Positions 3,668-16,323 of a stretch of 32,000 nt of DNA are shown here, one piece after another. Source of the DNA: an uncultured Solirubrobacterales bacterium (GTDB lineage: Bacteria > Actinomycetota > Thermoleophilia > Solirubrobacterales > Solirubrobacteraceae); the NCBI GenBank assembly GCA_963828075.1, contig CAWHDH010000017.1, positions 859,821-891,820 of the forward strand. Reading direction: 5' to 3'. Position numbers and translations under genes: made by a program. Within the stretch, counting starts at the first letter, position 1; every line of letters begins with the position of its first letter. Below the pieces are notes generated by a model, which made no database searches, had not been told where the DNA came from, and saw nothing but the letters and a program-made list of their open reading frames with translations.

Positions 3668-3741
3668 GCGGATGTAGCTCAGTTGGCTAGAGCGTCTGCT
3701 TGCCATGCAGAAGGTCGAGGGTTCGAGTCCCTTCATCCGCT
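3668..3741 (+). tRNA. tRNA-Gly (anticodon GCC)
   Basis: Hand-folded cloverleaf. Acceptor stem GCGGATG/CATCCGC; D stem GCTC/GAGC; anticodon stem TCTGC/GCAGA with loop TTGCCAT (anticodon GCC). Variable loop AGGTC; T arm GAGGG-TTCGAGT-CCCTT; discriminator T. 74 nt, with no encoded CCA. Confidence 0.93.
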
Positions 3742-3743
3742 TG
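3694..3743 (+). repeat. attL: 50-bp direct repeat running from the tRNA-Gly anticodon stem to 2 nt past the tRNA 3' end
   Basis: GTCTGCTTGCCATGCAGAAGGTCGAGGGTTCGAGTCCCTTCATCCGCTTG is identical base-for-base to 13861-13910. The flanking bases differ on both sides. Confidence 0.9.
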
Positions 3744-3751
3744 AAGCGAAA

Positions 3752-3775
3752 GCCCTGCTAGTCAGGGCTTTTTCT
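3752..3775 (+). terminator. Rho-independent terminator after tRNA-Gly (element-supplied copy)
   Basis: Stem GCCCTG / CAGGGC (6 bp) with loop CTAGT, followed by TTTTTCTTT. Confidence 0.7.
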
Positions 3776-3815
3776 TTGGGTTGAGCGGGTGGATTTGCTG
3801 GATTCTGGTGGTCGT

Positions 3816-3942: not shown

Positions 3943-5184
3943 CTACTGCGTGCGCGCCGGCCCGCGCTGACCGGCGCTGAGTTCGCGCTCCATCTCATCG
4001 ATGAGTGCGAAGAGGCCTGTGGACTCCCAGATCCGGTTCCGCTTCCCGACCGTCACCAGTGCAAGAACGCCCTTTTCCTCTAGGTGGTTGAGCGCATTGC
4101 GAGCGGCGACCTCGCTGCGGCGGGTCAGTGCAGCGGCCTTCGCGGCATCGAGCATCGGGTACTCAGGAAGCGCATCGATGATGGCCGCAGCGGCGGAATC
4201 CTTGCGCGGATTGCCCGCCTGTTCGCGCCAGCGTTGCTGGAGAGCGGCGACCTGACCCGCCAGACGACCGGAGGCCAAAGCAGCATCCTCAGCGGCGCGC
4301 GCCAGCAAGACGATCCACTGCTGGGCGCCGTCCTCTTCAAACCGCCATGCCGTCAATGCTTCGACGTACCGCTCCCGCTCGCGCGCCAGTACGAGGCTGA
4401 TCGGCGGAATTACGTCGCGACAGACCTCCCGCCGAGCCAGGATCGCTCCGATCAGCGAACGTCCGACGCGGCCGTTGCCATCCACGAACGGGTGCACAGT
4501 CTCGAATTGCGCGTGCACCACGGCGGCTTGGACAAGGGGCGGGACGTCCCACCGGTTGGCGTAGTCGCACAAGTCCTCGAGCAGCCCCTCGACATGCCGA
4601 GCAGGAGGGGGAATGAAGTCTGCCCCAGCGGGCGTGTACGGATCATGTCCGATCCAGTTCTGGCCTGTGCGGATCTTGCCTCCATGCGCCGCCAGGAAGC
4701 GATCGGCAGCAGCAAGGCGCTTGTGAACATCACGAATCACGTCGGCGCTGAACGGATCACCGCTGGCGGCTGCCCACCGGTACACCCAGCGAACTGCGTC
4801 GATGTTGGCCACGGCGGCCTGGGCGCTGGGTTTGTGCTGGCCGCCGGCAAGCGCCTTGGCGAGCGCTCGGTGCGACGGCACATCGATGCCTTCAATCTGA
4901 CTCGAGGCGATCGCCTCAGAGCGCAGAAGTTGCTGGGCGATCGTGTTGACGCCGACAGTGTCCGTATGTCGCTGAGCATCAGCGACCGCTTCCTGGGCAT
5001 CGAGAATCGCCTGCACCGTGGTTTCGTCGAGCTTGAGCTGGAGCTCCGACAGCGGTGCCGGCACGTATGCCTGCACGCGTACCGACCGCCGGGCGCGCTT
5101 TGGAATCCCAGTTACGGCCTCCAGCGATGGCTGCCACACCTCTTCAAGCAGCTCGTAGCGAGTTCCTTTCGTCGGCGATTCCAT
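3943..5184 (-). CDS. Fic family protein (AMPylase-type, class II with an N-terminal autoinhibitory helix and a C-terminal winged-helix-like region)
   Basis: The canonical Fic motif HPFVDGNGRVGR is encoded at 4459-4494. The N-terminal SSQIEG matches the (S/T)xxxE(G/N) inhibitory motif. I prefer the ATG at 5184 over the TTG at 5190. A TATTAT -10-like box on the minus strand (5198-5193) lies 8 nt upstream, suggesting a leaderless mRNA. Confidence 0.9.
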   Translation of the reverse strand: MESPTKGTRYELLEEVWQPSLEAVTGIPKRARRSVRVQAYVPAPLSELQLKLDETTVQAILDAQEAVADAQRHTDTVGVNTIAQQLLRSEAIASSQIEGIDVPSHRALAKALAGGQHKPSAQAAVANIDAVRWVYRWAAASGDPFSADVIRDVHKRLAAADRFLAAHGGKIRTGQNWIGHDPYTPAGADFIPPPARHVEGLLEDLCDYANRWDVPPLVQAAVVHAQFETVHPFVDGNGRVGRSLIGAILARREVCRDVIPPISLVLARERERYVEALTAWRFEEDGAQQWIVLLARAAEDAALASGRLAGQVAALQQRWREQAGNPRKDSAAAAIIDALPEYPMLDAAKAAALTRRSEVAARNALNHLEEKGVLALVTVGKRNRIWESTGLFALIDEMERELSAGQRGPARTQ

Positions 5185-5321
5185 ACGCAAGGATAATACA
5201 GTATGCTTGCGCTTGACTAAGCTTGCTCATAGCCTGAGGTGCGAAACGATAGTCCTACAGCCTTTCGCAAGAACCCTCGAGCTTCGCGCCGAGTGTGCGT
5301 CAGCCATCGCCGGTAGTTCGC

Positions 5322-5684: not shown

Positions 5685-6062
5685 TCAGCGATGCAAGTGC
5701 GTCCCCGTTGTTGGGAGGTGTCGGGACGGGTTGGCCTTCCCCGGCTTGGCCTTCCTCGGCCTGCTGCTCATGGCGATCGTCTTGGTTGCTGGTTTCGCTC
5801 TCTGGTCGTTGGGTTCGTGCGTTGACTTGCTGTGCTTGCCGTTCGTTCTGACTTGGCTGCTTGTCTTGAGGACTTGGGCTTTGAGGGGTGTGGTGCTGTT
5901 GGGCTGGATCTCTCGCTCGCCAATCAGCCGATGCTTGAAGTCGGCCGGCGCCCAATCACAACACCCAACCGCCAGCGCGCCAGCTCGTGCGCCGTCATCG
6001 AATGCGAGCTCCCCGATCCCATCCGTTCCTGCCAGCCAGCAGGTAGCGACGACCGCATCCAC
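5685..6062 (-). CDS. Hypothetical protein: ~55-aa N-terminal domain plus a long basic, polar, low-complexity tail
   Basis: This frame has the highest third-position G+C of the three overlapping ORFs here, judged by hand inspection. It starts 19 nt after the Imm8-like stop and ends 30 nt before the next minus-strand start, which is operon-like spacing. There is no recognisable motif. Confidence 0.4.
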   Translation of the reverse strand: MDAVVATCWLAGTDGIGELAFDDGARAGALAVGCCDWAPADFKHRLIGEREIQPNSTTPLKAQVLKTSSQVRTNGKHSKSTHEPNDQRAKPATKTIAMSSRPRKAKPGKANPSRHLPTTGTHLHR

Positions 6063-6080
6063 GCGCGAAAGCGGAAGCCG

Positions 6081-6413
6081 CTAGAAGCGCGGCTGCCTAT
6101 GTGAGAACTCCCAGTAGGCGTAGCGTCCGAACTCCGCCGTGAACTCATCCCAGTCGGCGGCGGGCACGGTTCGGATCAGGCGCTGGACGGCGGTCTCGAC
6201 AGCGCCCCATGTGAACGCGTTGATCACCACCGTGTACTCGGGCACCACCGGCTCGTCGCCATGTTCCGCCAACCACTGGGGCGTCACGAACCGAAGGTCG
6301 AAGTCGTCCGCGCCCTCGGATCGGGCATCCCCGATTGCGACCGTCACCTCGACCTGGCAGTTGGTCGGGTCGTCGGGCAAGTCCTCAACGCCCGGTAGGT
6401 GGCGACTGAACAT
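6081..6413 (-). CDS. Imm8-like immunity protein (polymorphic-toxin immunity family)
   Basis: EDLPDDPTNCQVEVTVAIGDARSEGADDFDLRFVTPQWLAEH...DWDEFTAEFGRYAYWEFSH matches my recollection of the Imm8 pattern. That pattern is an acidic EGxESFD-type segment, then (V/C)TPxWL, then a C-terminal Y(G)xWEF. The ATG at 6413 gives a typical ~110-aa size. The ORF is also open to 6509 (start there unchecked), with a further in-frame Met (ATG, 6452). Confidence 0.62.
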   Translation of the reverse strand: MFSRHLPGVEDLPDDPTNCQVEVTVAIGDARSEGADDFDLRFVTPQWLAEHGDEPVVPEYTVVINAFTWGAVETAVQRLIRTVPAADWDEFTAEFGRYAYWEFSHRQPRF

Positions 6414-6728
6414 GCGCCTCACAACCGGGCTGAACGCTGGTTCGGGCGGCATCGGTACAGGATGCCGCTTAGACACCACAGGGGCATCGTGGCCAACCCC
6501 TTTGCGCAACAGCCACCATGCAAAGCAACAGACGAAGTCCTGCGCAACAGACCCCGTAGCTCCGCGTCGAGGTCATGCTCCTTTCGACGGTTGTCGACCG
6601 TCGCTTGTCGAGGGGAAGTCTGGAAGAGGATCGGCATGTGGGCGCCGCCGGACCGTCCCGCCGCGCCGCCGCCGACGGCGCGCTATGTCTCCGGCAACGC
6701 GTCCGGTTCATCGGGTTGGCTATAGCCG

Positions 6729-7370
6729 GTGCACACCGCGGCGATCTTCGCCCAGCAGCAGCCGGCCCCGACCGACTACACCCCGGCAATCATCGCGGCT
6801 TGTGTTGCGCTCGTTGGCATCCTCGTAGCCGCTTGGACCGCGCAGAAGCGTCTCCGAGTCCAGCTCGATCACGACCGCGAGCTGCACGACCTCGGCGAGC
6901 TGCGCACCGTCGTGGATGAGGCGGCCGCCCTGACCTATACGGCGCTCGACAAGCTCACGGACGCGATGGCAGCCGCGGAGGATTGGGCTATCGCTGGGCA
7001 GTCCGGCGTCAAGGAAGCCGTGGCCGCCGCCGCAGCGCGCCACGAAGCATTCGTGGTGATATGGCCGATGGAGAACATGGCAGCCCGCCTAGCGCTCCGG
7101 CTGACGGAACAACACCCCGTGTACACCGCGTTCCAAGAGTTCCACCACGGCTGTAAGCAGGCGGCGCGCCAGATGCCGCTCAAGAACCCTCCGGATCCGA
7201 TCCTTGAACCCGACCGTTGGGCGGCGCTCAGAGCGGAGCTCCGCCGCACGCGTGTGGCCTATGTTCGCCAAGCGCACGAAGTAGTCGCTTCGCGCCTTCC
7301 GCCACCCACGCCGACGGTACGCGCACATCCGAGGCTGCCCAAACTCCTCCGGCCATCCGGGCAGCGCTGA
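6729..7370 (+). CDS. Hypothetical single-pass membrane-anchored helical protein
   Basis: It has one N-terminal hydrophobic helix (PAIIAACVALVGILVAAWTA) followed by a helical soluble region. GTG start; no known motif. Confidence 0.45.
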   Translation: MHTAAIFAQQQPAPTDYTPAIIAACVALVGILVAAWTAQKRLRVQLDHDRELHDLGELRTVVDEAAALTYTALDKLTDAMAAAEDWAIAGQSGVKEAVAAAAARHEAFVVIWPMENMAARLALRLTEQHPVYTAFQEFHHGCKQAARQMPLKNPPDPILEPDRWAALRAELRRTRVAYVRQAHEVVASRLPPPTPTVRAHPRLPKLLRPSGQR

Positions 7371-8754: not shown

Positions 8755-9462
8755 TCACCGCGGCCAGGACAAGCCAGCGCTCGCGGGGAGCATCGGCGCC
8801 CGGCGGGCGTAGACGGTGTCGATGATCTCGGCGTTGTCGATGCCCTGTAGGTAAACGGACGTCACGCCGAGGTTCGCGTGGCCGAGCTGGCGTTGGATGA
8901 CGTTCAGCGGCACGCCTTCGCGAGCCATCTCGACCGCATGCGCGTGACGGAGTTGATGCGGCGCGAACCGCCGACGCACTCCCGCGTCGAACGCGAGGCG
9001 CCGGAGGGTCGCTCGAGCCGCGGCGGCTGACCATGGCCGGCCACGGGTCGACCCCGTGAGCACGCAGATCAGGGAGCCGACTGGCAGCTCGACGCGCCGC
9101 TCGAGCCACGGCGAGAGCTGCTCCCAGCCCCACGGGTCCATGCCGACCTCTCGACGTTTGTCACCTTTGCCGTGGCGGACGAGGACTGCGCCGCGCCGTC
9201 GGTCAAGGTCGCTCTCGGCGAGATCGAGCGCTTCGCTGATCCGAAGACCCGCTCGCCAGAGCAAGACCACAAGGGCACGCGCTCGCAGCCCATGCGGGCC
9301 ATCGCCGGCCGAGCGCATGACGGCGACGATTTCCTCGACGGTCGGCGGATCGGCCGGATAGCGCAGACCCTTGTTGCGCGGCGCGCGGCCACAGTGATAG
9401 CCGGGCAAGGTCGCCGGCGAGCGACGCCGACCAGCGGCGTCGAGAAGCACGAGAGTGGTCAT
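8755..9462 (-). CDS. Short tyrosine recombinase/integrase (catalytic domain with only a minimal N-terminal region)
   Basis: The catalytic signature is present: AGLRISEAL (Arg), HQLRHAH (His-x-x-Arg), LGHANLGVT (His) and SVYLQG (Tyr). The ATG at 9462 (MTTLVLLD...) gives 235 aa. The upstream 95 codons of the ORF look non-coding. Confidence 0.85.
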   Translation of the reverse strand: MTTLVLLDAAGRRRSPATLPGYHCGRAPRNKGLRYPADPPTVEEIVAVMRSAGDGPHGLRARALVVLLWRAGLRISEALDLAESDLDRRRGAVLVRHGKGDKRREVGMDPWGWEQLSPWLERRVELPVGSLICVLTGSTRGRPWSAAAARATLRRLAFDAGVRRRFAPHQLRHAHAVEMAREGVPLNVIQRQLGHANLGVTSVYLQGIDNAEIIDTVYARRAPMLPASAGLSWPR

Positions 9463-9728
9463 CGACGCAGCCTCGACGGATCCCAGCTCAGCCACCCCGC
9501 TGCCAGGCAAGCACTCGCTCCCACTCCGCATGGAAAGGGTGGTCGCGTGCGCGCGCAGCCCACTAGTGCCGCCATGCGAAGCGGCTGCGCCGCGGGGCCA
9601 CTCGGTTGTCATGCTCATCGGCGTGACCGGCCCGATCTCGTTTCTAAACCGATCCCTCTGGACCGAAGTCGAGCGGTATCCCGCGGTCGAACCAGACGCG
9701 CTCTCCCCATTACGAGGAGGCAGTGGGT

Positions 9729-10052
9729 ATGCGCCTCCCCGACGCACTGCGGACCCTGCTGCTAGACGAAGGAGCGATCAGGGGCTGGGTCGGCTCGTAC
9801 TACCTCTGCCTCGTGCACCCAGGCTTGGCGCTCGAGATTCGCAACGAGCAGCTGAGCTACGGATGGAGCCCAGATTTTGTTCTGTTCGCCGACGACGGCA
9901 GCCGCAAGCAATTCTTCATCGCGAGCAGCGACGGATCCATCTGGCTGTCTGACATTCTCACTTACGCCCAAGACGGCGAACCGTTCGCCGACGGGCTGGA
10001 AACGTTCGCGAAGCAAATCGAGCAGGAAGGCCAGGACCCGCTTCCACTATGA
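9729..10052 (+). CDS. SMI1/KNR4 (SUKH superfamily)-like immunity protein
   Basis: MRLPDALRTLLLDEG...PDFVLFADDGSRKQFFIASSDGSIWLSD...FADGLETFAKQIEQE fits the SUKH pattern (LPxxyxxFLxxxNG ... ipFAxDGgGnxxcfd ... sFeeFl). A strong RBS (GAGGAGG, 9714-9720) lies 8 nt before the ATG at 9729. Confidence 0.68.
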   Translation: MRLPDALRTLLLDEGAIRGWVGSYYLCLVHPGLALEIRNEQLSYGWSPDFVLFADDGSRKQFFIASSDGSIWLSDILTYAQDGEPFADGLETFAKQIEQEGQDPLPL

Positions 10053-10265: not shown

Positions 10266-11120
10266 TCAGCTTCTAAGCCTGCGGATCAAGTTCGCGAGCA
10301 TGATGGTCGCGTCGGCCGCAAGCCCGGCGTCGCGGCGGCTTGGCGTCGTGCGGTGCTTAATCGCCTGGGCTGCCTCGATCGTCGCCCGCGCGAGCTTCCG
10401 TAGCTCAGCGTTCTCCGGTCCGGGCAGTTCGACCTCGACGATGCGGTCCAAGCGGTCCTTGGTCCTAGCGACGGGCGGCTCGGATTCGTTCGCTCGCGAG
10501 TGGCGTGCGGCGTCGTAGGCAGCGGCGCTAATCGCTTCGATGACGATGACGCAATCGTTACCGACGTTCCTGTAGTCCTGGGGAGTAGTTGCGCTTTGGA
10601 AGTGGCGACGTAATTCGGCAACCTCTGCGTCGACCTTGGTCCACCCGGTGCGGCCGCGAGGACTAACAGCTTCGGCCAGGGACGACGTGAGCGATTGCGA
10701 TTCCAGGTCGGCCAGCTGATCATGCAGGGCATCGAAGATGCCGCCCAGGATGTCGCGGCGCGCTTGCCAACCGCCCGCGCCGCTGGCGCCGGTACGTATC
10801 CAGTAGCTGCGAAACGTCGTGAAATCCCGAAACCGAACGTCGGGGACGTCCGCGCCGAGACGCGTGCACACCGCTCGTAATGCCAGAAGCGCGTCGCGCA
10901 TGTCGGCGTCGTCCATAATCTCGCCGCCACCCGTGCCGAACGCCTCAAGCTCGTCGTGGATCAAGCGCGCGAGTCCCACCGCAGTTTCCACGTCGGGCGC
11001 GTTGCTCAGCGGCCCTTGTCGGAGCCGTCGCGCGACGTCTCGACGGAATCGACGAACTGTTGAGTCGAACCCGAACCCAGAGGGCTCAACCGTCTCCTCA
11101 ATGAAGTTCTCCGGCCGCAT
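10266..11120 (-). CDS. Hypothetical protein (284 aa, mostly helical), downstream member of a two-gene ORFan module
   Basis: This is a long clean ORF with ATG at 11120 and lower G+C than the core genome. It lies 88 nt downstream of the HEPN-like ORF on the same strand. No motif was recognised. Confidence 0.6.
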   Translation of the reverse strand: MRPENFIEETVEPSGFGFDSTVRRFRRDVARRLRQGPLSNAPDVETAVGLARLIHDELEAFGTGGGEIMDDADMRDALLALRAVCTRLGADVPDVRFRDFTTFRSYWIRTGASGAGGWQARRDILGGIFDALHDQLADLESQSLTSSLAEAVSPRGRTGWTKVDAEVAELRRHFQSATTPQDYRNVGNDCVIVIEAISAAAYDAARHSRANESEPPVARTKDRLDRIVEVELPGPENAELRKLARATIEAAQAIKHRTTPSRRDAGLAADATIMLANLIRRLRS

Positions 11121-11208
11121 GAGCTGGAACGTAGTTCGCGTCCCGACGTACGCAGACCTCTGCGCTGTCCCGGCTTAGGGCAACAAACGACACGATGGCG
11201 TATCGATT

Positions 11209-11769
11209 TCAGCCTTGCTTATCGGTCAGCCGCTCGATCTTTGCCTCAAGGTCTGGGTCCCAGTCCCATTCGTCGGCTTCGGGGAAGCGCTCTTTGGCGT
11301 CGTCGAGGATGCGCTCGAGCACCTCGATCTTCTCGCGGAGCATCTGCCTGAGGTCACGGTCCGGCGGCTCGGCAAGCCGTGGGTTACTCCCGCTTCGGGC
11401 CGGCCTGATCCGCAGTTCGGGCCGGGTGATTCCTACCTGGCTGTGGATCATGAGCGCACCCTCGTGCAGGACGTAGTTGCGGGCTTGCAGCAGGTAGGCG
11501 AACTCGGGGTCCGCGGCGAGTTGCCTCCGCACATCCGCGTACCACTCATCGAAGCCAGTGTCGTGCTTGAACTCCTTCTGGAGGAAGAGCGTGAAGCTGC
11601 GTATCGCCGAGATGGCGCTGTGGGTGTAGACCGCGTTGTCCGGCCACTGGGTCGGCGAATCCGAGAGGTGGGCCAGCATGAGCTTCGCCTGCTCGAGCAT
11701 CACCCAGGTGGGAACCCACCGTAAGAGGTCGTCGTAGTCGAGGTTGTCGAAGCCGAGGTCGCCGGGCAT
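11209..11769 (-). CDS. Hypothetical helical protein with a HEPN-like RNxxxH motif (candidate RNase/Abi-type effector)
   Basis: The protein contains ...EFAYLLQARNYVLHEGAL..., and RNYVLH is encoded at 11464-11481 (cgc aac tac gtc ctg cac, minus strand). Three predicted helices precede the motif, as in HEPN domains. I prefer the ATG at 11769; a TTG at 11802 is also possible. Confidence 0.55.
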   Translation of the reverse strand: MPGDLGFDNLDYDDLLRWVPTWVMLEQAKLMLAHLSDSPTQWPDNAVYTHSAISAIRSFTLFLQKEFKHDTGFDEWYADVRRQLAADPEFAYLLQARNYVLHEGALMIHSQVGITRPELRIRPARSGSNPRLAEPPDRDLRQMLREKIEVLERILDDAKERFPEADEWDWDPDLEAKIERLTDKQG

Positions 11770-11985
11770 GGAAGCCGTGGATCGCTGGCAACTCTCCCAC
11801 AAGTCGTCCGTAGTGCCTCATCCGTTGAAATGCTCTCGGGGCCTGCAGGCTCTCGCTTTCGCGTGGATGCGCTAGCTGGCGCTCAGGGTTCGGGACGACC
11901 GCAGCCAAACGGCTACTGGTGTCCGTCTACAGAGCAGACCGTGCAACTCGCGCTTCCTACTCAGCCGCTCACTCGCGAGGACGTC

Positions 11986-12135
11986 ATGACAGCCGGCGAG
12001 GTCGCCGAGCTCGTGAAGATCCCTCGGTCGACCGTCTACGATCTCGCGCGTCGCGGGCTGATTCCCGCGCACAGGATCGGGCGGGCGTGGCGGTTCGTCC
12101 GGCAGGAGATCGAGCAGTGGCTGCTCGCGAGCTGA
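11986..12135 (+). CDS. xis: Excisionase-family / MerR-type helix-turn-helix DNA-binding protein (Xis)
   Basis: MTAGEVAELVKIPRSTVYDLARRGLIPAHRIGRAWRFVRQEIEQWLLAS is a classic 50-aa excisionase-type HTH. GAGGA lies 5 nt upstream of the ATG at 11986. Confidence 0.8.
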   Translation: MTAGEVAELVKIPRSTVYDLARRGLIPAHRIGRAWRFVRQEIEQWLLAS

Positions 12136-12413: not shown

Positions 12414-13715
12414 CTAATCCGCGGCAACCGCGAGCCCCTGCGCCGTACCCTTGGAGCCGGTGGCAAAGGCGGCGTCGAGGCGCGCGTACTCCTCAGGGCG
12501 GTACTTGGCCGAGACGTAGCGGTCGGTCGTCGTGAGCTTCGCGTGGCCGAGCATGTCGCGGACGAAGACCGGGTCGGCGGTGCGGGCGACGATGCTGCCG
12601 GCGGCGTGGCGGAGGGCGTGGAGCCTGAGTGGGCGGAGGCCGGCGGCGGCGCAGGCGGCCTTGTAGCGGCGGCGGACGGCAGAGCCGTCGAGGCGCCTCC
12701 CCCACACGTTCGCGAAGACGTAGTCGTCGGGTGAGAGGAACTCGCCTCGCCCACGGAGGCGCTGCAGCACGTCGACGGCCGGCTGAGCGAGCGGGGCGAT
12801 GCGGAAGCGGCGGCCCTTCGGGATTCCTTCGACGTCGGCTGAGAGGCCGCGGCGGACGAGCAGCGTCCGGAGCTCGAGGTCGACGTCGTCCCAGCGGAGC
12901 GTCAGCGCCTCGCCGAGCCGGAGGCCGGTGAAGAACAACAGCCGGAACAGCTCGGCGTCCTGCTCATCGATGCGGATGTCGAGGGCGTCGCGGACGCGCC
13001 GCCGATGCTCCCCGGCGGCCGTCACCAGGGCGAGCGCCTCGATCTCATGGGGCTCGTAGTAGTCGAGCGCGGCCGGCGGGTCCTCCGGGCGCTTGTCGGT
13101 GCCGAGGACCGGGTTGGCCGGGAGGTTGTGCGCGTCCTCGCGACAGGCGTACTGGAACATCGCGGCGAGGACCTGGCGGTGCTTGTTGACGTTGCGCGGC
13201 GTCAGGCCCTCGGCGTCGAGCGTCCGGAGGAACCTCGAGATGTCGCGGGTGGTCACCGACTCGATCGGCCGGTCGCCGAGGGCGGCGAGGATGCGGCCGG
13301 CGCTCGACCGCCTGCCGCGCTTGAACGGCGTCCCCGGCTCGCGCAGCAGCGCCTCGTAGTCGCGCAGCGTCGACGGCTTGCTCTGCTTGACGTCTCGCTG
13401 CCACTCCAGCCAGTCGCGCGCGAGGTCGCGGACGAGGACCGGCCGGTTCGCCGCTTCACGCGCCAGCCGCTCGCGCTCAACCCGCTCCTCCCCCACCGCC
13501 GCGATCGTCGCAACCGCCGCCGCGTGGGCGCCCCGCTCGTCCAACCAGCCATCACGGACGCGGCCCGCGCGCCGCGCCCATCCCCCATCAGCCGCCGTCA
13601 ACCAGGCCGGACCGAGGCGTCGCTTGAGCTGCTGACCACCGGCTCGCCACTTGACCTCGTAGTACGGAACCCCGCCCTTCCCGACCCGCACGACGAGGTT
13701 GTACGAGGCCGCCAT
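12414..13715 (-). CDS. int: Tyrosine integrase of the island
   Basis: 433 aa. The N-terminal arm-binding/SAM-like region is followed by a catalytic domain with TGLRLGEALTLRWDDVDL, HALRHAAGS, LGHAKLTTTDRYV. It lies 145 nt from attR. Confidence 0.9.
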   Translation of the reverse strand: MAASYNLVVRVGKGGVPYYEVKWRAGGQQLKRRLGPAWLTAADGGWARRAGRVRDGWLDERGAHAAAVATIAAVGEERVERERLAREAANRPVLVRDLARDWLEWQRDVKQSKPSTLRDYEALLREPGTPFKRGRRSSAGRILAALGDRPIESVTTRDISRFLRTLDAEGLTPRNVNKHRQVLAAMFQYACREDAHNLPANPVLGTDKRPEDPPAALDYYEPHEIEALALVTAAGEHRRRVRDALDIRIDEQDAELFRLLFFTGLRLGEALTLRWDDVDLELRTLLVRRGLSADVEGIPKGRRFRIAPLAQPAVDVLQRLRGRGEFLSPDDYVFANVWGRRLDGSAVRRRYKAACAAAGLRPLRLHALRHAAGSIVARTADPVFVRDMLGHAKLTTTDRYVSAKYRPEEYARLDAAFATGSKGTAQGLAVAAD

Positions 13716-13786
13716 TTCGGCGAGGGTACCACCGATTTCGGCGAGGGTACCAACTCCTCCGCGGGTACCACTTTGGGTACCAAACG
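13714..13786 (+). promoter_or_regulatory. Cluster of four GGGTACCA motifs between int and attR, including a 21-bp tandem duplication (candidate arm-type sites / int promoter region)
   Basis: ATTTCGGCGAGGGTACCA occurs twice in tandem (13714-13734 and 13735-13755), and the first copy overlaps the int start codon. Further GGGTACCA copies lie at 13763-13770 and 13775-13782. Confidence 0.45.
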
Positions 13787-13860: not shown

Positions 13861-13910
13861 GTCTGCTTGCCATGCAGAAGGTCGAGGGTTCGAGTCCCTT
13901 CATCCGCTTG
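13861..13910 (+). repeat. attR: 50-bp direct repeat (orphan 3' half of tRNA-Gly)
   Basis: Identical to 3694-3743. It lacks the tRNA acceptor 5' strand and D arm, so it is not a functional tRNA. Confidence 0.9.
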
Positions 13911-13918
13911 TGAGGAAA

Positions 13919-13945
13919 GCCCCGGTAATCGGGGCCTTTTCTTTG
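13919..13945 (+). terminator. Rho-independent terminator (probably the original chromosomal tRNA-Gly terminator, now orphaned)
   Basis: Stem GCCCCG / CGGGGC with loop GTAAT, followed by CTTTTCTTT. It is homologous to, but diverged from, the hairpin at 3752-3775. Confidence 0.6.
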
Positions 13946-14049
13946 GTCTGAGCGGCCGTTTTCTGGGGTCTGGTGGTCGCCCGTCCCACCTGCGGGTACC
14001 GTGCCCCTCGGGCCGTACGGCCCCGAGAGCCCATCGAGGAGGACCGCTC

Positions 14050-16323
14050 ATGTCTGCCGCCGCTGGCCCGGTCACCGCTCGCGCACGGAGGGCGCTCGTG
14101 TTGGTCGCCGTCCTCGGCGGGACGCTCGTGTGGGGCGCCGGTCCCGTCCTCGCGATCGACTACGAAGACGACAATCGCAACATCTGCGCCGGCACGAACT
14201 GCTTCGAAGGGCAGGACCTCGAGGCCGATGGCGCGACGGACAACGTCGCGCTCGGTCACTTTCCGATGGTCAACCTGACGAGCGGCGACGGCAACGTCTC
14301 GCTGGGTACCTTCGCGTTGCGGCTGACCTCGACGGGAAGTCACAACTTCGCCGGCGGCTACCGCGCGCTGTACCGAAACACGAGCGGTAGCTCCAACATC
14401 GCGCTCGGCACGGACGCGCTGTTCGGGACGACGACCGGGAGCAGCAACCTCGGCGCGGGGACGGCCGCGCTCTACTACAACACGACCGGTCACCACAACG
14501 TCGCCCTCGGTAGTCGGGCGCTGTCAGAGAACACGACGGGCTACGAGAACGTCGCCACCGGCTACAGCGCGCTGTACTCGAACACGACCGCGCACGACAA
14601 CGTCGCCACGGGCCACCAGGCGCTGTACTCCAACCGCGGCCTGTTCAACACCGCCACCGGCTCGGATGCGCTGTACGCCAACACCACCGGTCACGACAAC
14701 GTGGCCACCGGCACCGAAGCCCTGCTGTCCAACACGACCGGCACCAACCTCGTCGCCACCGGCTCTGACGCCCTGCGCCACAACACGACGGGCAACTACA
14801 ACGTGGCCAACGGCTACAACGCCCTGCGCTTCAACACCATCGGCTCGGACAACGTCGCCGGCGGCGCCAACGCGCTGTACGCCAACACGTCAGGCAACGA
14901 GAACGTCGCGGCGGGCGCCGGCGCGATGTTCGACAACACCACCGGCAGCCGCAACGTGGCCGGCGGCACCGATGCGCTGCGCTCGAACCGGGGCGGCGAC
15001 GACAACGTCGCCACGGGCACCAGCGCCCTGCACGCGAACATCTCCGGCGACGGGAACGTCGCCACGGGACGCGACGCGCTGCGCGCGAACACCACCGGCA
15101 GCGACAACGTCGCGACCGGGATTCGTGCGCTCTCCGCCAACGTCGACGGCACGGGCAACGTCGCCGCCGGCGTCGACGCCCTGCGTTCGAACCGCGGGGG
15201 CGACAACAACGTCGCCGCCGGCCGCGAGGCGCTCTACTCGAACGCGACCGGCTCGGGCAACGTCGCCCACGGCACCGGGGCGCTGCGGTCCAATTCCAGC
15301 GGCTACGACAACGTGGCCAGCGGCACCGAGGCGCTGCGCGCGAACACCACCGGCGCCTACAACGTCGCCTCCGGCTACCGCGCGCTCTTCACGAACACCA
15401 CGGGCGACTTCAACGTCGCCAGCGGCTACCGGGCGCTGCTCTCCAACACCGAGGGGCGCTACAACGCCGCCTACGGGTCGCACGCGCTCTACTCCAACAC
15501 GGCCGGCAGCAACAACGTCGCCACCGGCATCACCGCCCTGGAGAAGAACACCACCGGTCAGGACAACGTCGCGGTCGGCGCGGGGGCGCTGCGGGCCAGC
15601 ACGACCGCGTCGGGCAACGTCGCCACGGGCAGCGGCGCGCTGGTCTCCAACACGACCGGCACCGGGAACGTCGCCAGCGGTCAGCGAGCGCTCGAATCCA
15701 ACACGACCGGACAGTCCAACGTCGCCATCGGGATCGACGCCGGCTCGGCCCTGACCACGGGCAACAACAACGTCACGATCGCGAACAAGGGCGTCGCCGG
15801 GCAGACCAACACGATCCGCATCGGAAGCCCCACGCACACCGGGGCCTACCTCGCGGCCGTCAACAACGTCGCGGTCAGCGGGCCGACCCAGCCGGTGCTC
15901 GTCAACGCCTCCGGCCGGCTGGGCACCGCCACGCTCAGCTCGGCGGCGCTCAAGACCGGGATCGAGCCGCTGGGTGGCAGCGTGCTCGACCGGCTGATGG
16001 CGCTCGAGCCGGTCAGCTACCGCTACCGCGCCGGCGACGGGACGCGTCAGTTCGGGCTGCTGGCGGAGGACGTCGCCCGCGCGCTGCCGACGCTCGTGAC
16101 GCGCAACGATCGCGGCCGGCCGACGGGCATCCACTACGACCAGCTCTCACCGCTGCTCCTGGCCCAGGCCCAGCGCCACGAGCGCCGGCTCGCCGACCAG
16201 GCGGCGACGATCGCTCGGCTGCGGGGCGCGCTGCGCGGCCAGGCGGCCGCCAACGCGCGGCAGGACCGCCAACTGCGTGAGCAAGGACGCCTGCTGCGGC
16301 GGCTCGCGGCGGCGTCGAGGTAG
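14050..16323 (+). CDS. Secreted repeat protein: ~30 tandem 17-residue NTTGxxNVAxGxxALxS repeats plus a C-terminal tail-fibre intramolecular-chaperone (peptidase S74-like) domain
   Basis: RBS GAGGAGG lies 7 nt before the ATG at 14050. The signal-like N-terminus is MSAAAGPVTARARRALVLVAVLGGTLVWGAGPVLA. The 51-nt coding periodicity runs from ~14236 to ~15790. The C-terminus SSAALKTGIEPLGGSVLDRLMALEPVSYRYRAGDGTRQFGLLAEDVARALPTLV...IHYDQLSPLLLAQAQ matches the S74 chaperone pattern. Confidence 0.85.
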   Translation: MSAAAGPVTARARRALVLVAVLGGTLVWGAGPVLAIDYEDDNRNICAGTNCFEGQDLEADGATDNVALGHFPMVNLTSGDGNVSLGTFALRLTSTGSHNFAGGYRALYRNTSGSSNIALGTDALFGTTTGSSNLGAGTAALYYNTTGHHNVALGSRALSENTTGYENVATGYSALYSNTTAHDNVATGHQALYSNRGLFNTATGSDALYANTTGHDNVATGTEALLSNTTGTNLVATGSDALRHNTTGNYNVANGYNALRFNTIGSDNVAGGANALYANTSGNENVAAGAGAMFDNTTGSRNVAGGTDALRSNRGGDDNVATGTSALHANISGDGNVATGRDALRANTTGSDNVATGIRALSANVDGTGNVAAGVDALRSNRGGDNNVAAGREALYSNATGSGNVAHGTGALRSNSSGYDNVASGTEALRANTTGAYNVASGYRALFTNTTGDFNVASGYRALLSNTEGRYNAAYGSHALYSNTAGSNNVATGITALEKNTTGQDNVAVGAGALRASTTASGNVATGSGALVSNTTGTGNVASGQRALESNTTGQSNVAIGIDAGSALTTGNNNVTIANKGVAGQTNTIRIGSPTHTGAYLAAVNNVAVSGPTQPVLVNASGRLGTATLSSAALKTGIEPLGGSVLDRLMALEPVSYRYRAGDGTRQFGLLAEDVARALPTLVTRNDRGRPTGIHYDQLSPLLLAQAQRHERRLADQAATIARLRGALRGQAAANARQDRQLREQGRLLRRLAAASR

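What the first reader, a model, noticed from the sequence alone, without database searches (positions are those of the whole stretch)
10266..11802. Two-gene ORFan module next to xis/int; upstream protein has a HEPN-type RNxxxH motif (candidate novel defence/abortive-infection system)
Two co-directional genes (11209-11769/11802 and 10266-11120, separated by 88 nt) occupy the slot between the excisionase and a SUKH immunity gene. This is the lowest-G+C part of the island. I recognise no family for either protein. However, the ~190-aa upstream protein is all-helical and has ...LLQARNYVLHEGAL... after three predicted helices. That is the position and form (R-N-x3-H, followed by a small residue) of the catalytic motif of HEPN RNases such as Abi_2/AbiD-F, HepT and Cas13/Csm6-type HEPN. 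HEPN effectors paired with an uncharacterised partner and located beside an integrase are a common pattern for phage-defence or toxin modules. The 284-aa partner could be a sensor, an antitoxin or a second degenerate HEPN.
Basis: inference. Interest (0 to 1): 0.72.

Follow-up and report, generated by a model that had tools for sequence, protein, structure and literature searches.

The report
Ea47-like gene beside AbiJ-like gene
Two neighbouring genes on a small integrated element are independent passengers, one related to phage lambda's uncharacterised Ea47 protein and the other a variant of single-protein AbiJ-type abortive-infection defence proteins, and they do not form a new two-gene HEPN toxin system.

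Summary
The two ORFs, the 88-nt gap and the LLQARNYVLHEGAL motif are real, and both genes are under purifying selection. They are not ORFans and not a conserved pair.

- **Gene A (11209-11769, minus strand, 186 aa):** it belongs to Pfam PF26900 Phage_lambda_Ea47. The family has 873 representatives at 50% identity, and its profile hits lambda Ea47 at E=7e-30.
- **The HEPN-type motif in A:** R and N are near-invariant. The "H" is K in 127 of 143 family representatives, including lambda Ea47. No HEPN model or structure matches significantly.
- **Gene B (10266-11120, minus strand, 284 aa):** it has more than 440 relatives in Actinomycetota, many on plasmids. Its N-terminal domain is homologous (hhalign E=4e-41) to that of a large "abortive infection family protein" group whose C-terminus is Abi_C (AbiJ-HEPN). 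Its C-terminal helical domain recurs behind AbiJ_NTD3 in Rhizobium and Bosea plasmid proteins.
- **Pairing:** across 8 distinct A loci and 12 distinct B loci, the two genes never co-occur. DNA homology stops at each gene's borders.

Best reading: two separate cargo genes on a 10.2-kb tRNA-Gly island. B is a plausible AbiJ-architecture defence protein with an unrecognised effector domain. A is an Ea47-family accessory protein of unknown function. Interest is moderate to low.

The parts
11209..11769 (-). Gene A: 186-aa protein of the lambda Ea47 family (N-terminal-domain-only form). An alternative TTG start at 11802 would give 197 aa.
   Evidence: ORF. Homologues start at the ATG. Precomputed PF26900 Phage_lambda_Ea47. 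The family profile hits lambda Ea47 at E=7.4e-30. AlphaFold pLDDT 88. dN/dS 0.18-0.31.
11464..11481 (-).
   Evidence: Sequence. In the family, R is 143/143, N is 132/143, and position 102 is K 127 / H 16. Lambda Ea47 has SRNTIEKQG.
11188..11205 (-). Weak terminator-like hairpin followed by TTTGTT, just after the stop codon of A.
   Evidence: Consensus scan: 1 site found against 1.1 expected by chance. Fold z-score -0.76. Not significant, only a hint that A and B may be separate transcription units.
10680..11120 (-). Gene B N-terminal domain (aa 1-147): beta-hairpin plus helices. It is shared with actinobacterial 'abortive infection family proteins' that end in Abi_C.
   Evidence: hhalign A3 vs A4 gives probability 100%, E=3.7e-41 over B residues 1-147. 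The Arthrobacter ORF L020:3387-4313 has Abi_C at E=6.9e-24. The sister family has 647 hits.
10269..10655 (-). Gene B C-terminal domain (aa 156-284): five-helix bundle with invariant H207 and H256. It is also found behind AbiJ_NTD3 and other N-terminal domains in Rhizobium, Bosea and Haliscomenobacter plasmid proteins.
   Evidence: tblastn E=2e-7 to 3e-8. AbiJ_NTD3 E=3e-52 in L024:3039-3905. The B profile hits only the C-domain region of these proteins, E=1e-16 to 2e-23. Invariant residues. Weak Foldseek resemblance to HEPN structures 2q00 and 1wol, E=0.75-0.86.
10266..11120 (-). Gene B as a whole: 284 aa, AbiJ-type architecture (variable N-terminal domain plus C-terminal putative effector).
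   Evidence: ORF. At least 442 homologues. Present on actinobacterial plasmids. AlphaFold pLDDT 89.5, two domains. dN/dS 0.07-0.12.
11830..12135 (+). Excisionase-type HTH_17 gene, divergent from A. The real start is probably near 11986.
   Evidence: Pfam HTH_17 E=5.6e-16 over aa 52-98.
12414..13715 (-). Tyrosine integrase of the island.
   Evidence: Pfam Phage_integrase E=9e-27.
3694..3743 (+). attL: 50-nt core identical to attR, overlapping the 3' part of tRNA-Gly(GCC) at 3668-3741.
   Evidence: ARAGORN. Direct repeat D1. Rfam tRNA.
13861..13910 (+). attR: second copy of the 50-nt core. Together with attL it delimits a ~10.2-kb integrated element that contains A and B.
   Evidence: Direct repeat D1, spacing 10167 nt.
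8755..9747 (-). Second, smaller tyrosine recombinase downstream of B. It is 71% identical to the recombinase next to the B homologue in L005/L006.
   Evidence: Pfam Phage_integrase E=1e-29. tblastn.
9723..10052 (+). SUKH/SMI1_KNR4-like gene (weak match).
   Evidence: Pfam E=0.0011, 20.1 bits, below the cut-off of 25.4.

Best explanation
The finding covers two unrelated, independently mobile cargo genes that happen to be adjacent on a ~10.2-kb element integrated in tRNA-Gly(GCC). They are not a two-gene system.

Gene B is a single-chain AbiJ-architecture protein. Its N-terminal domain is shared with actinobacterial 'abortive infection family proteins', which carry Abi_C. It is joined to a different C-terminal helical-bundle domain, which in Rhizobiales sits behind AbiJ_NTD3.

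Inferred mechanism for B, following the model of Anantharaman et al. 2013 for AbiJ-type proteins: the N-domain senses or is restrained by a phage component, and the C-domain (invariant H207 and H256, conserved K221 and R262) is the growth-arresting effector. That effector may be a non-canonical HEPN-like nuclease.

Gene A is the N-domain-only form of the lambda Ea47 family. This family is a helical-bundle accessory ('moron') protein of temperate phages, ICEs and plasmids. It has a conserved polar cluster: R57, T60, Q64, K65, W76, Y77, R97, N98 and K/H102. Its function is unknown.

Inferred role for A: a stand-alone accessory protein that binds a phosphate-bearing ligand or nucleic acid. It is not a canonical HEPN RNase.

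Shown: family memberships, domain sharing, lack of co-occurrence, island boundaries. Inferred: the defence role, the sensor/effector split and any enzymatic activity.
For: Gene A:
- PF26900 is precomputed on all close homologues.
- The exhaustive profile search finds 873 representatives, of about 200 aa and about 410-430 aa.
- The family profile hits lambda Ea47 at E=7.4e-30. A family member hits Ea47 at E=7e-25.
- Homologues sit in the leftward accessory block between the tail genes and the integrase in Gordonia phages. Lambda ea47 occupies a comparable place, beside the tail-fibre genes in the block that runs ea47-ea31-ea59-attP-int-xis. Others sit in relaxase/T4SS elements.

Gene B:
- N-domain homology to Abi_C proteins, E=3.7e-41.
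- The C-domain occurs behind AbiJ_NTD3 (E=3e-52) and behind other N-terminal domains.
- It is found on plasmids of Rhodococcus, Mycobacterium, Arthrobacter, Clavibacter, Gordonia, Kocuria and Prescottella.
- Its neighbours include Mrr, HipA, KAP NTPase, integrases and transposases.
- Anantharaman 2013 (PMC3710099) describes this swap pattern for AbiJ N-terminal domains and effectors.

Independence of A and B:
- 8 distinct A loci lack B, and 12 distinct B loci lack A, by profile search of six-frame translations. A ninth A locus, with a gene table only, shows no 284-aa neighbour.
- DNA homology to other contigs ends at each gene's borders.
- dS to the nearest relatives differs: about 0.34 for A against 0.63-1.3 for B.
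- A and B are not related to each other.
- No RNA antitoxin-like repeats or Rfam hits were found.
Against: - Nothing here is experimental, and the function of Ea47 is unknown in the literature searched.
- Neither protein hits PADLOC, NCBIfam or PHROGs.
- B's C-domain has no significant sequence or fold match. Foldseek gives E=0.2-0.9, and hhalign to Abi_C gives probability 0.2%. 'Effector' therefore rests on architectural analogy alone.
- Most close homologues of A and B lie on short contigs, so adjacency in the nearest relatives is poorly sampled.
- One B homologue (L008) is preceded at 20 nt by a different small protein with a canonical RNKIAH HEPN motif. A recurrent loose association of B with HEPN-motif genes therefore cannot be excluded.
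- The 88-nt gap and shared strand allow co-transcription of A and B here.
Confidence: 0.6

Rival explanations
1. One reading: A is a HEPN RNase toxin or effector, and B is its sensor or antitoxin partner in a two-gene defence or toxin-antitoxin module.
For: - The two genes are co-directional with an 88-nt gap and lie next to xis/int.
- R-N-x3-H sits at the end of a helix, followed by a loop. This is the topological place of Rx4-6H (PMC3710099).
- HepT HEPN toxins appear among the weak Foldseek hits (8xdj, 8yuf, 7ae6, 6m6u, 5yep; E=1.4-3.4).
- B has Abi-type relatives.
- In L008 a different HEPN-motif gene precedes a B homologue.
Against: - The genes never co-occur in 20 other distinct loci.
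- Homology breaks at the gene borders.
- The H is K in 89% of the family and no other invariant His exists.
- There are no HEPN Pfam hits among 52 family members. One had PF05168 at E=0.089.
- hhalign to Abi_C gives probability 0.1-0.8%.
- There is a terminator-like hairpin between the genes, though it is weak.
Confidence: 0.08
2. A alone is a divergent member of the HEPN superfamily. In its clade H102 has been regained or retained, making it an active RNase. The K-bearing majority, including lambda Ea47, would be non-catalytic or use different chemistry.
For: - Invariant R97, with N98 at 92% (a polar residue after R, as in HEPN).
- Position 102 is restricted to K or H.
- The helix order fits the HEPN description: H1, H2, an inserted helix, H3 ending in the motif, then H4.
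- A beta-hairpin directly after the motif has a precedent in Csx1.
- One homologue is fused to an RNase H-like domain, which suggests a nucleic-acid context.
Against: - No significant structural or profile similarity to any HEPN.
- No Ex3[KR] motif in helix 2.
- The strongest conservation is elsewhere (R57, T60, Q64, W76, Y77), which is not a HEPN signature.
- His is essential in characterised HEPN RNases.
Confidence: 0.15
3. B is not a defence protein. It is a plasmid/ICE housekeeping or regulatory protein whose domains merely circulate among mobile elements.
For: - No PADLOC hit.
- The C-domain is unrelated to Abi_C by profile comparison.
- Several B loci show no obvious defence neighbours, for example L010 and L011 in chromosomes and L021 next to a DnaB-like helicase.
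Against: - The N-domain is shared with a 647-hit family whose only recognised domain is Abi_C.
- The C-domain is fused to AbiJ_NTD3, a domain described only in conflict-system architectures.
- Genomic placement is patchy and variable, on plasmids, islands and next to transposases.
Confidence: 0.2
4. A is a phage-side factor, that is, an anti-defence, superinfection-exclusion or lysogeny-associated regulator like other lambda b-region genes, and not a host defence gene.
For: - The family is named after lambda ea47, which lies in the same leftward gene block as int and xis.
- Homologues in Gordonia temperate phages sit in the integrase-proximal accessory block.
- In the window, A sits next to xis/int.
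Against: - No functional data for any member.
- Many members are on conjugative elements rather than phages.
- This rival is compatible with, and not exclusive of, the best explanation's 'accessory protein of unknown function'.
Confidence: 0.25

Closest known systems
Phage lambda Ea47 (Pfam PF26900 Phage_lambda_Ea47)
   Same: - Gene A shares the N-terminal helical domain and its signature, R-[ST]-V-T-x3-Q-K ... G-F-x2-W-Y ... D-P ... R-N-x3-[KH]-[EQ]-G.
- It has the same kind of genomic slot, near int/xis or among accessory genes of temperate elements.
   Different: - A is 186 aa and lacks the ~200-aa C-terminal half of the 410-aa Ea47.
- A has H where Ea47 and 89% of the family have K.
- The host is a high-G+C actinobacterium-type genome.
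- The function of Ea47 itself is unknown, so the family assignment gives no mechanism.
AbiJ-type abortive-infection proteins (variable N-terminal domain plus Abi_C/AbiJ-HEPN; Anantharaman et al. 2013, PMC3710099), in particular the actinobacterial 'abortive infection family protein' group (e.g. Arthrobacter sp. U41 plasmid ORF, P0286)
   Same: - Gene B has the same two-domain layout and size (~285-310 aa).
- Its N-domain is clearly homologous (E=3.7e-41), down to the MRxxDFF start and the PFRDFxxFRSYW / WQARRD motifs.
- It is a stand-alone gene on plasmids and islands.
   Different: - B lacks Abi_C and its ELRNRGYGTGHG motif.
- Its C-domain is a different family, with no profile similarity.
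- That domain has invariant H207 and H256 and no Rx4-6H.
- No PADLOC model matches.
AbiJ_NTD3-containing plasmid proteins of Rhizobium and Bosea (e.g. WP_018516676.1, L024:3039-3905)
   Same: They share B's C-terminal domain (32-34% identity; profile E=2e-23) with the same invariant residues.
   Different: Their N-terminal domain is AbiJ_NTD3 (PF18860), not B's N-domain. They are also uncharacterised.
HEPN RNases with an R-N-x3-H motif (HepT/DUF86, Abi_2/AbiD-F, RiboL-PSP-HEPN)
   Same: The window copy of A has R-N-x3-H-E-G at the end of a helix within a helical bundle. HepT structures appear among the weak Foldseek hits.
   Different: - The H is not conserved in A's family, which mostly has K.
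- No significant fold or profile match.
- A different set of invariant residues.

Membership tests
HEPN superfamily (for gene A) | Rx4-6H motif at the end of helix 3 or the start of the loop to helix 4, with a polar residue after R (PMC3710099). | tested here: met
   In the window protein, R97-N98-x3-H102 lies at the C-terminal end of helix 88-103 and is followed by a loop and hairpin. This holds for this copy only.
HEPN superfamily (for gene A) | Conservation of the catalytic His of the motif, or of an alternative His, across the family. | tested here: not met
   Position 102 is K in 127 and H in 16 of 143 representatives. Lambda Ea47 has K. There is no other invariant His; the invariant residues are R57, W76 and R97.
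HEPN superfamily (for gene A) | Four-helix up-down bundle that is recognisably similar to solved HEPN domains. | tested here: inconclusive
HEPN superfamily (for gene A) | Sequence or profile similarity to a HEPN family. | tested here: not met
   - Pfam scan of 52 family members: one PF05168 hit at E=0.089.
- PDB profile search: none.
- hhalign to Abi_C: probability 0.1-0.8%.
- PADLOC and NCBIfam: none.
HEPN superfamily (for gene A) | Conserved acidic residue in helix 2, typically within Ex3[KR]. | tested here: not met
   Helix 44-67 carries R57, T60, Q64 and K65. E66 is present in only 85 of 143 representatives and is not in an Ex3[KR] context.
Phage_lambda_Ea47 (PF26900) (for gene A) | A match to the family model or to lambda Ea47 itself. 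| tested here: met
   - PF26900 is precomputed on the identical protein P0001 and on all close homologues.
- The profile of A's family hits lambda Ea47 residues 22-415 at E=7.4e-30.
- P0264 against Ea47 gives E=7e-25.
- The model itself is absent from the local Pfam copy.
AbiJ-type Abi proteins (for gene B) | C-terminal Abi_C (AbiJ-family HEPN) domain with a conserved R...H motif. | tested here: not met
   No Pfam hit for B or for 44 homologues. hhalign of B's C-domain against Abi_C gives probability 0.2%. There is no Rx4-6H motif. H256 is invariant, but the preceding R is absent.
AbiJ-type Abi proteins (for gene B) | Architecture: an N-terminal domain that also occurs with Abi_C, followed by a C-terminal effector-position domain. 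| tested here: met
   The N-domain is homologous to that of Abi_C proteins (E=3.7e-41). The C-domain recurs behind AbiJ_NTD3 (E=3e-52) and behind other N-terminal domains.
AbiJ-type Abi proteins (for gene B) | Confers abortive infection or phage resistance. | not testable with these tools
The mechanism of AbiJ itself is still unknown (PMC13064643).
Two-gene toxin-antitoxin or defence operon (A+B) | Conserved adjacency of the two families across genomes. | tested here: not met
   The genes co-occur in 0 of 8 distinct A loci and 0 of 12 distinct B loci. The closest B homologue with context (89% identity, L031) has a transposase upstream.
Known defence systems (PADLOC-DB 2.0) | A match to any component model. 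| tested here: not met
   No hit for A or B at E<=1.

The most novel reading that the evidence does not exclude
B's C-terminal domain may be a previously unrecognised effector module. It has invariant H207 and H256, conserved K221 and an H-x5-R motif, and a HEPN-like bundle. It would substitute for Abi_C in AbiJ-type single-protein abortive-infection systems. That would define a new Abi variant spread over actinobacterial plasmids and islands, including ~87-kb Prescottella equi plasmids, and, with other N-terminal domains, over Rhizobiales and Bacteroidota plasmids.

In parallel, the lambda Ea47 N-domain (gene A) may be a HEPN-derived fold that uses R-N-x3-K/H for nucleic-acid binding or cleavage. 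That would give the first functional handle on a lambda gene that is still unexplained.
Probability: 0.3. Interest if true: 0.55.

Novelty: new variant of a known kind. Interest (0 to 1): 0.35.

Why it matters
- **A false lead is removed.** The finding is not a new two-gene HEPN system.
- **Two testable candidates replace it.** The first is an AbiJ-architecture protein family (more than 440 clusters) in which the HEPN-type Abi_C domain is replaced by an uncharacterised two-histidine helical domain. The second is the Ea47 family, shown here to be large (873 representative clusters) with a sharply conserved polar site.
- **What each would add if confirmed.** If B protects against phages, it adds an effector domain to the Abi repertoire of Actinomycetota, where defence systems are less well charted. 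If A's site is functional, it gives a starting point for the unknown role of lambda ea47.

Tried and rejected
- **Family libraries for A and B.** Local Pfam, PADLOC, NCBIfam and PHROGs gave nothing. PF26900 is missing from the local Pfam copy.
- **Foldseek, PDB.** Nothing significant for either model.
- **Foldseek, BFVD, for A.** Only one unnamed 166-aa phage protein (E=1e-5), probably a Gordonia phage homologue.
- **PDB sequence-profile searches with A2, A3 and A5.** No meaningful hits.
- **hhalign.** No relation for A vs B, A vs Abi_C, B C-domain vs Abi_C, or A vs the L008 HEPN-like protein.
- **Idea that B is regularly preceded by an Ea47-like or HEPN-like gene.** Rejected. Upstream neighbours are a 385-aa unknown, transposases, a helicase, a 64-aa ORF or nothing. 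Only L008 has a HEPN-motif gene.
- **Type III toxin-antitoxin-like RNA repeats or Rfam elements.** None.
- **Promoter scan.** No sigma-70-type sites. This is uninformative in a high-G+C genome.
- **Collection scans.** The genome and metagenome scans returned few loci, 2 each. The viral scan with A2 failed for lack of a conserved stretch.
- **Literature on Ea47 function.** None found.
Full report
**Observation.** The window carries two co-directional minus-strand ORFs, 11209-11802 (TTG start; ATG at 11769) and 10266-11120, with 88 nt between them. The peptide LLQARNYVLHEGAL is present, with the R codon at 11481-11479 and the H codon at 11466-11464. An HTH_17 excisionase-type gene (11830-12135, plus strand; E=5.6e-16) and a tyrosine integrase (12414-13715, minus strand) flank one side. 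A weak SUKH match (9723-10052; E=0.0011, below Pfam's cut-off) and a second small tyrosine recombinase (8755-9747, minus strand) flank the other. G+C is 0.63-0.645 here against 0.72-0.78 in the flanks.

**The island.** tRNA-Gly(GCC) lies at 3668-3741. A 50-nt stretch covering its 3' part (3694-3743) is repeated exactly at 13861-13910, just beyond the integrase. A and B are therefore cargo of a ~10.2-kb integrated element. The element also carries a Fic gene (3943-5190, minus strand), an Imm8 gene (6081-6509, minus strand), an MTHFR-like gene and the SUKH-like gene.

**Gene A is not an ORFan.** The local Pfam, PADLOC, NCBIfam and PHROGs copies gave nothing. The identical database protein and all close homologues nevertheless carry a precomputed hit to PF26900, named Phage_lambda_Ea47.
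- An exhaustive profile search found 873 representatives at E<=1e-3, clustering around ~200 aa and ~410-430 aa.
- The profile of a 52-sequence alignment hits lambda Ea47 itself at E=7.4e-30. A 410-aa member hits Ea47 at E=7e-25.
- A directly hits hypothetical proteins of temperate Gordonia phages (Apricot gp35, PhorbesPhlower gp28). These lie in the leftward accessory block between the tail genes and the integrase.
- Lambda ea47 has a comparable position beside the tail-fibre genes, in the order tail fibres, ea47, ea31 (HNH), ea59 (AAA ATPase), attP, int, xis.
- Other close homologues sit in elements with a TrwC relaxase, a T4SS coupling protein, a KAP NTPase or an SRA/ScoMcrA-like gene.
- No paper in the library assigns a function to Ea47.

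**The HEPN reading of A.**
- *Conservation.* Among 143 aligned representatives, R97 is invariant and N98 is present in 132. Position 102 is K in 127 and H in 16, and never anything else. Lambda Ea47 reads SRNTIEKQG and the Gordonia phage proteins read MRSEMLHEG. The other invariant or near-invariant residues are R57, T60, Q64, K65, F73, W76 and Y77. No His is conserved family-wide.
- *Structure.* The AlphaFold model (pLDDT 88) has helices 19-37, 44-67, 73-86 and 88-103, a beta-hairpin at 106-123, then helices 140-161 and 172-184. The motif ends helix 88-103 and is followed by a loop. According to Anantharaman et al. 2013 (PMC3710099), this is the topological place of Rx4-6H. An extra helix between H2 and H3 is also common in HEPN domains.
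- *Conclusion.* The fold topology is compatible with HEPN, but membership is not shown. The defining His is not conserved, and that His is essential in characterised HEPN RNases. The strict K/H alternation next to invariant arginines points to a functional basic site of unknown chemistry.

**Gene B.** It has at least 442 relatives (53-90% identity in the top 120), none with a Pfam domain. The few that carry organism names come from Gaiellaceae, Micromonospora, Kribbella and Streptosporangium. tblastn finds it on plasmids of Rhodococcus, Mycobacterium, Arthrobacter, Clavibacter, Gordonia, Kocuria and Prescottella equi, and in no phage record. The model (pLDDT 89.5) has two domains, 1-145 and 160-284.
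- *N-domain.* Taken alone it matches an Arthrobacter plasmid ORF of 308 aa (L020:3387-4313), whose C-terminal half is Abi_C (PF14355; E=6.9e-24). That ORF represents a large actinobacterial family (647 hits), annotated 'abortive infection family protein'. hhalign of the two families gives probability 100% and E=3.7e-41, but only over B residues 1-147.
- *C-domain.* Taken alone it matches Rhizobium and Bosea plasmid proteins whose N-terminus is AbiJ_NTD3 (PF18860; E=3e-52). It also occurs behind unrecognised N-terminal regions in Haliscomenobacter (353 aa) and Rhizobium sp. N1341 (337 aa), and in a ~200-aa R. tumorigenes ORF whose annotated CDS is only 127 aa.
- *Conserved residues.* Across all these, H207 and H256 are invariant, with conserved TGW, D164, C190, Y202, K221 and R262.
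- *No recognised relative.* The C-domain shows no profile similarity to Abi_C or to any solved structure. Foldseek gives only weak resemblance to HEPN structures 2q00 and 1wol (probability 0.92-0.95 but E=0.75-0.86), on a par with cytochrome b562 bundles.
- *Interpretation.* This is the combinatorial pattern described for AbiJ proteins. Variable N-terminal domains are joined to Abi_C or to alternative effector domains. The N-terminal domains are proposed to act as sensors or inhibitors and the C-domains as toxins. The mechanism of AbiJ itself remains unknown.

**Are A and B a module?** No.
- Profile searches of six-frame translations found no B in 8 distinct A loci: L001, L002, L013, L014, L015/16, L017, L018 and lambda.
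- They found no A in 12 distinct B loci: L003, L004, L005/6, L007, L008/9, L010, L011/12, L019, L021, L022, L023 and L031.
- The closest B homologue with context (89% identity, L031) has IS256-type transposase fragments upstream.
- At the DNA level, homology to other contigs covers 11201-11813 for A and 10266-11174 for B, and stops there.
- A weak terminator-like hairpin follows A's stop codon. It is no more than chance would give.
- A and B are unrelated to each other.
- One caveat remains. In L008 a B homologue is preceded at 20 nt by a different 181-aa protein with a canonical DRNKIAHG motif and a weak RiboL-PSP-HEPN hit. This may reflect defence-island clustering (Mrr and HipA are nearby) or a loose functional association.

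**Mechanism, committed.** The steps below are inferred, not shown.
- B (probability about 0.5-0.6 that it is defence-related) acts alone as an AbiJ-architecture abortive-infection protein. The N-domain recognises, or is released by, a phage component. The two-histidine C-domain then arrests growth, possibly as a non-canonical HEPN-like nuclease.
- A is a stand-alone Ea47-family accessory protein with a conserved basic/aromatic pocket. I infer that it binds nucleic acid or a phosphorylated ligand. Its role may be superinfection exclusion, defence or counter-defence.

**Verdict.** The sequence features are real. The 'ORFan two-gene HEPN module' interpretation fails its own refutation tests. The abortive-infection idea survives, transferred to the partner gene. 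Novelty: a new variant of a known kind (AbiJ-type architecture with an unrecognised effector domain) plus a new member of the uncharacterised Ea47 family. Interest is moderate to low (0.35).

Noticed in passing
L008:5435-5980 (a 1.34-Mb metagenome-assembled contig), 20 nt upstream of a B homologue at 6001-6819: A 181-aa protein with a canonical HEPN motif (DRNKIAHG). It has a weak HEPN_RiboL-PSP hit (E=0.009) and a phrog_12663 hit (E=1e-26). It is unrelated to A by hhalign. Mrr_cat and HipA genes are nearby. This is a second, different HEPN-motif gene directly upstream of a B-family gene.
   Followed up: partly
L017:7001-7978 (protein P0003): An A homologue (86% identity) is fused in frame to an RNase H-like RVT_3 domain. 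The protein is 325 aa and its cluster has 14 member sequences. The extension is absent from every other locus examined.
   Followed up: partly
window 8755-9747 (minus strand); L005:4236-4937 and L006:4868-5569: The second, small tyrosine recombinase of the island is 71% identical to the recombinase beside the 84%-identical B homologue in L005/L006, although gene order and orientation differ. B may travel with this recombinase as a small cassette nested in the tRNA-Gly island.
   Followed up: partly
window 13714-13731 and 13735-13752: Two exact 18-nt direct repeats (ATTTCGGCGAGGGTACCA), 21 nt apart start to start, lie between the integrase start codon and attR. They may be arm-type integrase binding sites or promoter elements.
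   Followed up: no
window 3744-3788 and 13911-13955: Beyond the 50-nt identical att core, both copies continue into a GC-rich hairpin followed by a T-run. The stem differences are compensatory (GCCCTGCTAGTCAGGGC against GCCCCGGTAATCGGGGC). This looks like a conserved tRNA terminator that the element duplicated or brought in.
   Followed up: no
window 3943-5190 (minus strand), 6081-6509 (minus strand), 9723-10052 (plus strand): The same island carries a Fic/DOC gene (E=1e-18), an Imm8 immunity-type gene (E=1e-17) and a weak SUKH-type gene. It is a small conflict/immunity cargo island.
   Followed up: partly
window 13867-16323 (plus strand): An 818-aa ORF immediately outside attR has long runs of an 'NTTGxxNVAxGxxAL' repeat and a C-terminal Peptidase_S74 (endosialidase chaperone) domain (E=3e-10). 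It looks like a tail-fibre or adhesin-like repeat protein. Its listed start overlaps attR.
   Followed up: no
L003:6001-6853 (Solirubrobacteraceae MAG CAVSHS010000023.1): The 87%-identical B homologue is split over two reading frames near 6700. This is either a frameshifted pseudogene or an assembly error.
   Followed up: no
L005:8405-12364: A 1319-aa protein with a C-terminal AHH nuclease domain, of the polymorphic-toxin type, lies 1.2 kb downstream of a B homologue. It is next to a primase-like gene and a KAP NTPase.
   Followed up: no
Plasmid hits H32-H34 (Prescottella equi plasmids of ~87-89 kb): B-family genes (49% identity) are present on Prescottella (Rhodococcus) equi plasmids from a horse (Equus caballus) and from clinical isolates.
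   Followed up: no
L010:1982-2056 against window 3668-3742 and 13861-13909: A 2.7-Mb MAG contig carries a 95%-identical tRNA-Gly with the same att core, apparently unoccupied. A 55%-identical B homologue lies about 4 kb away in a non-island context.
   Followed up: no
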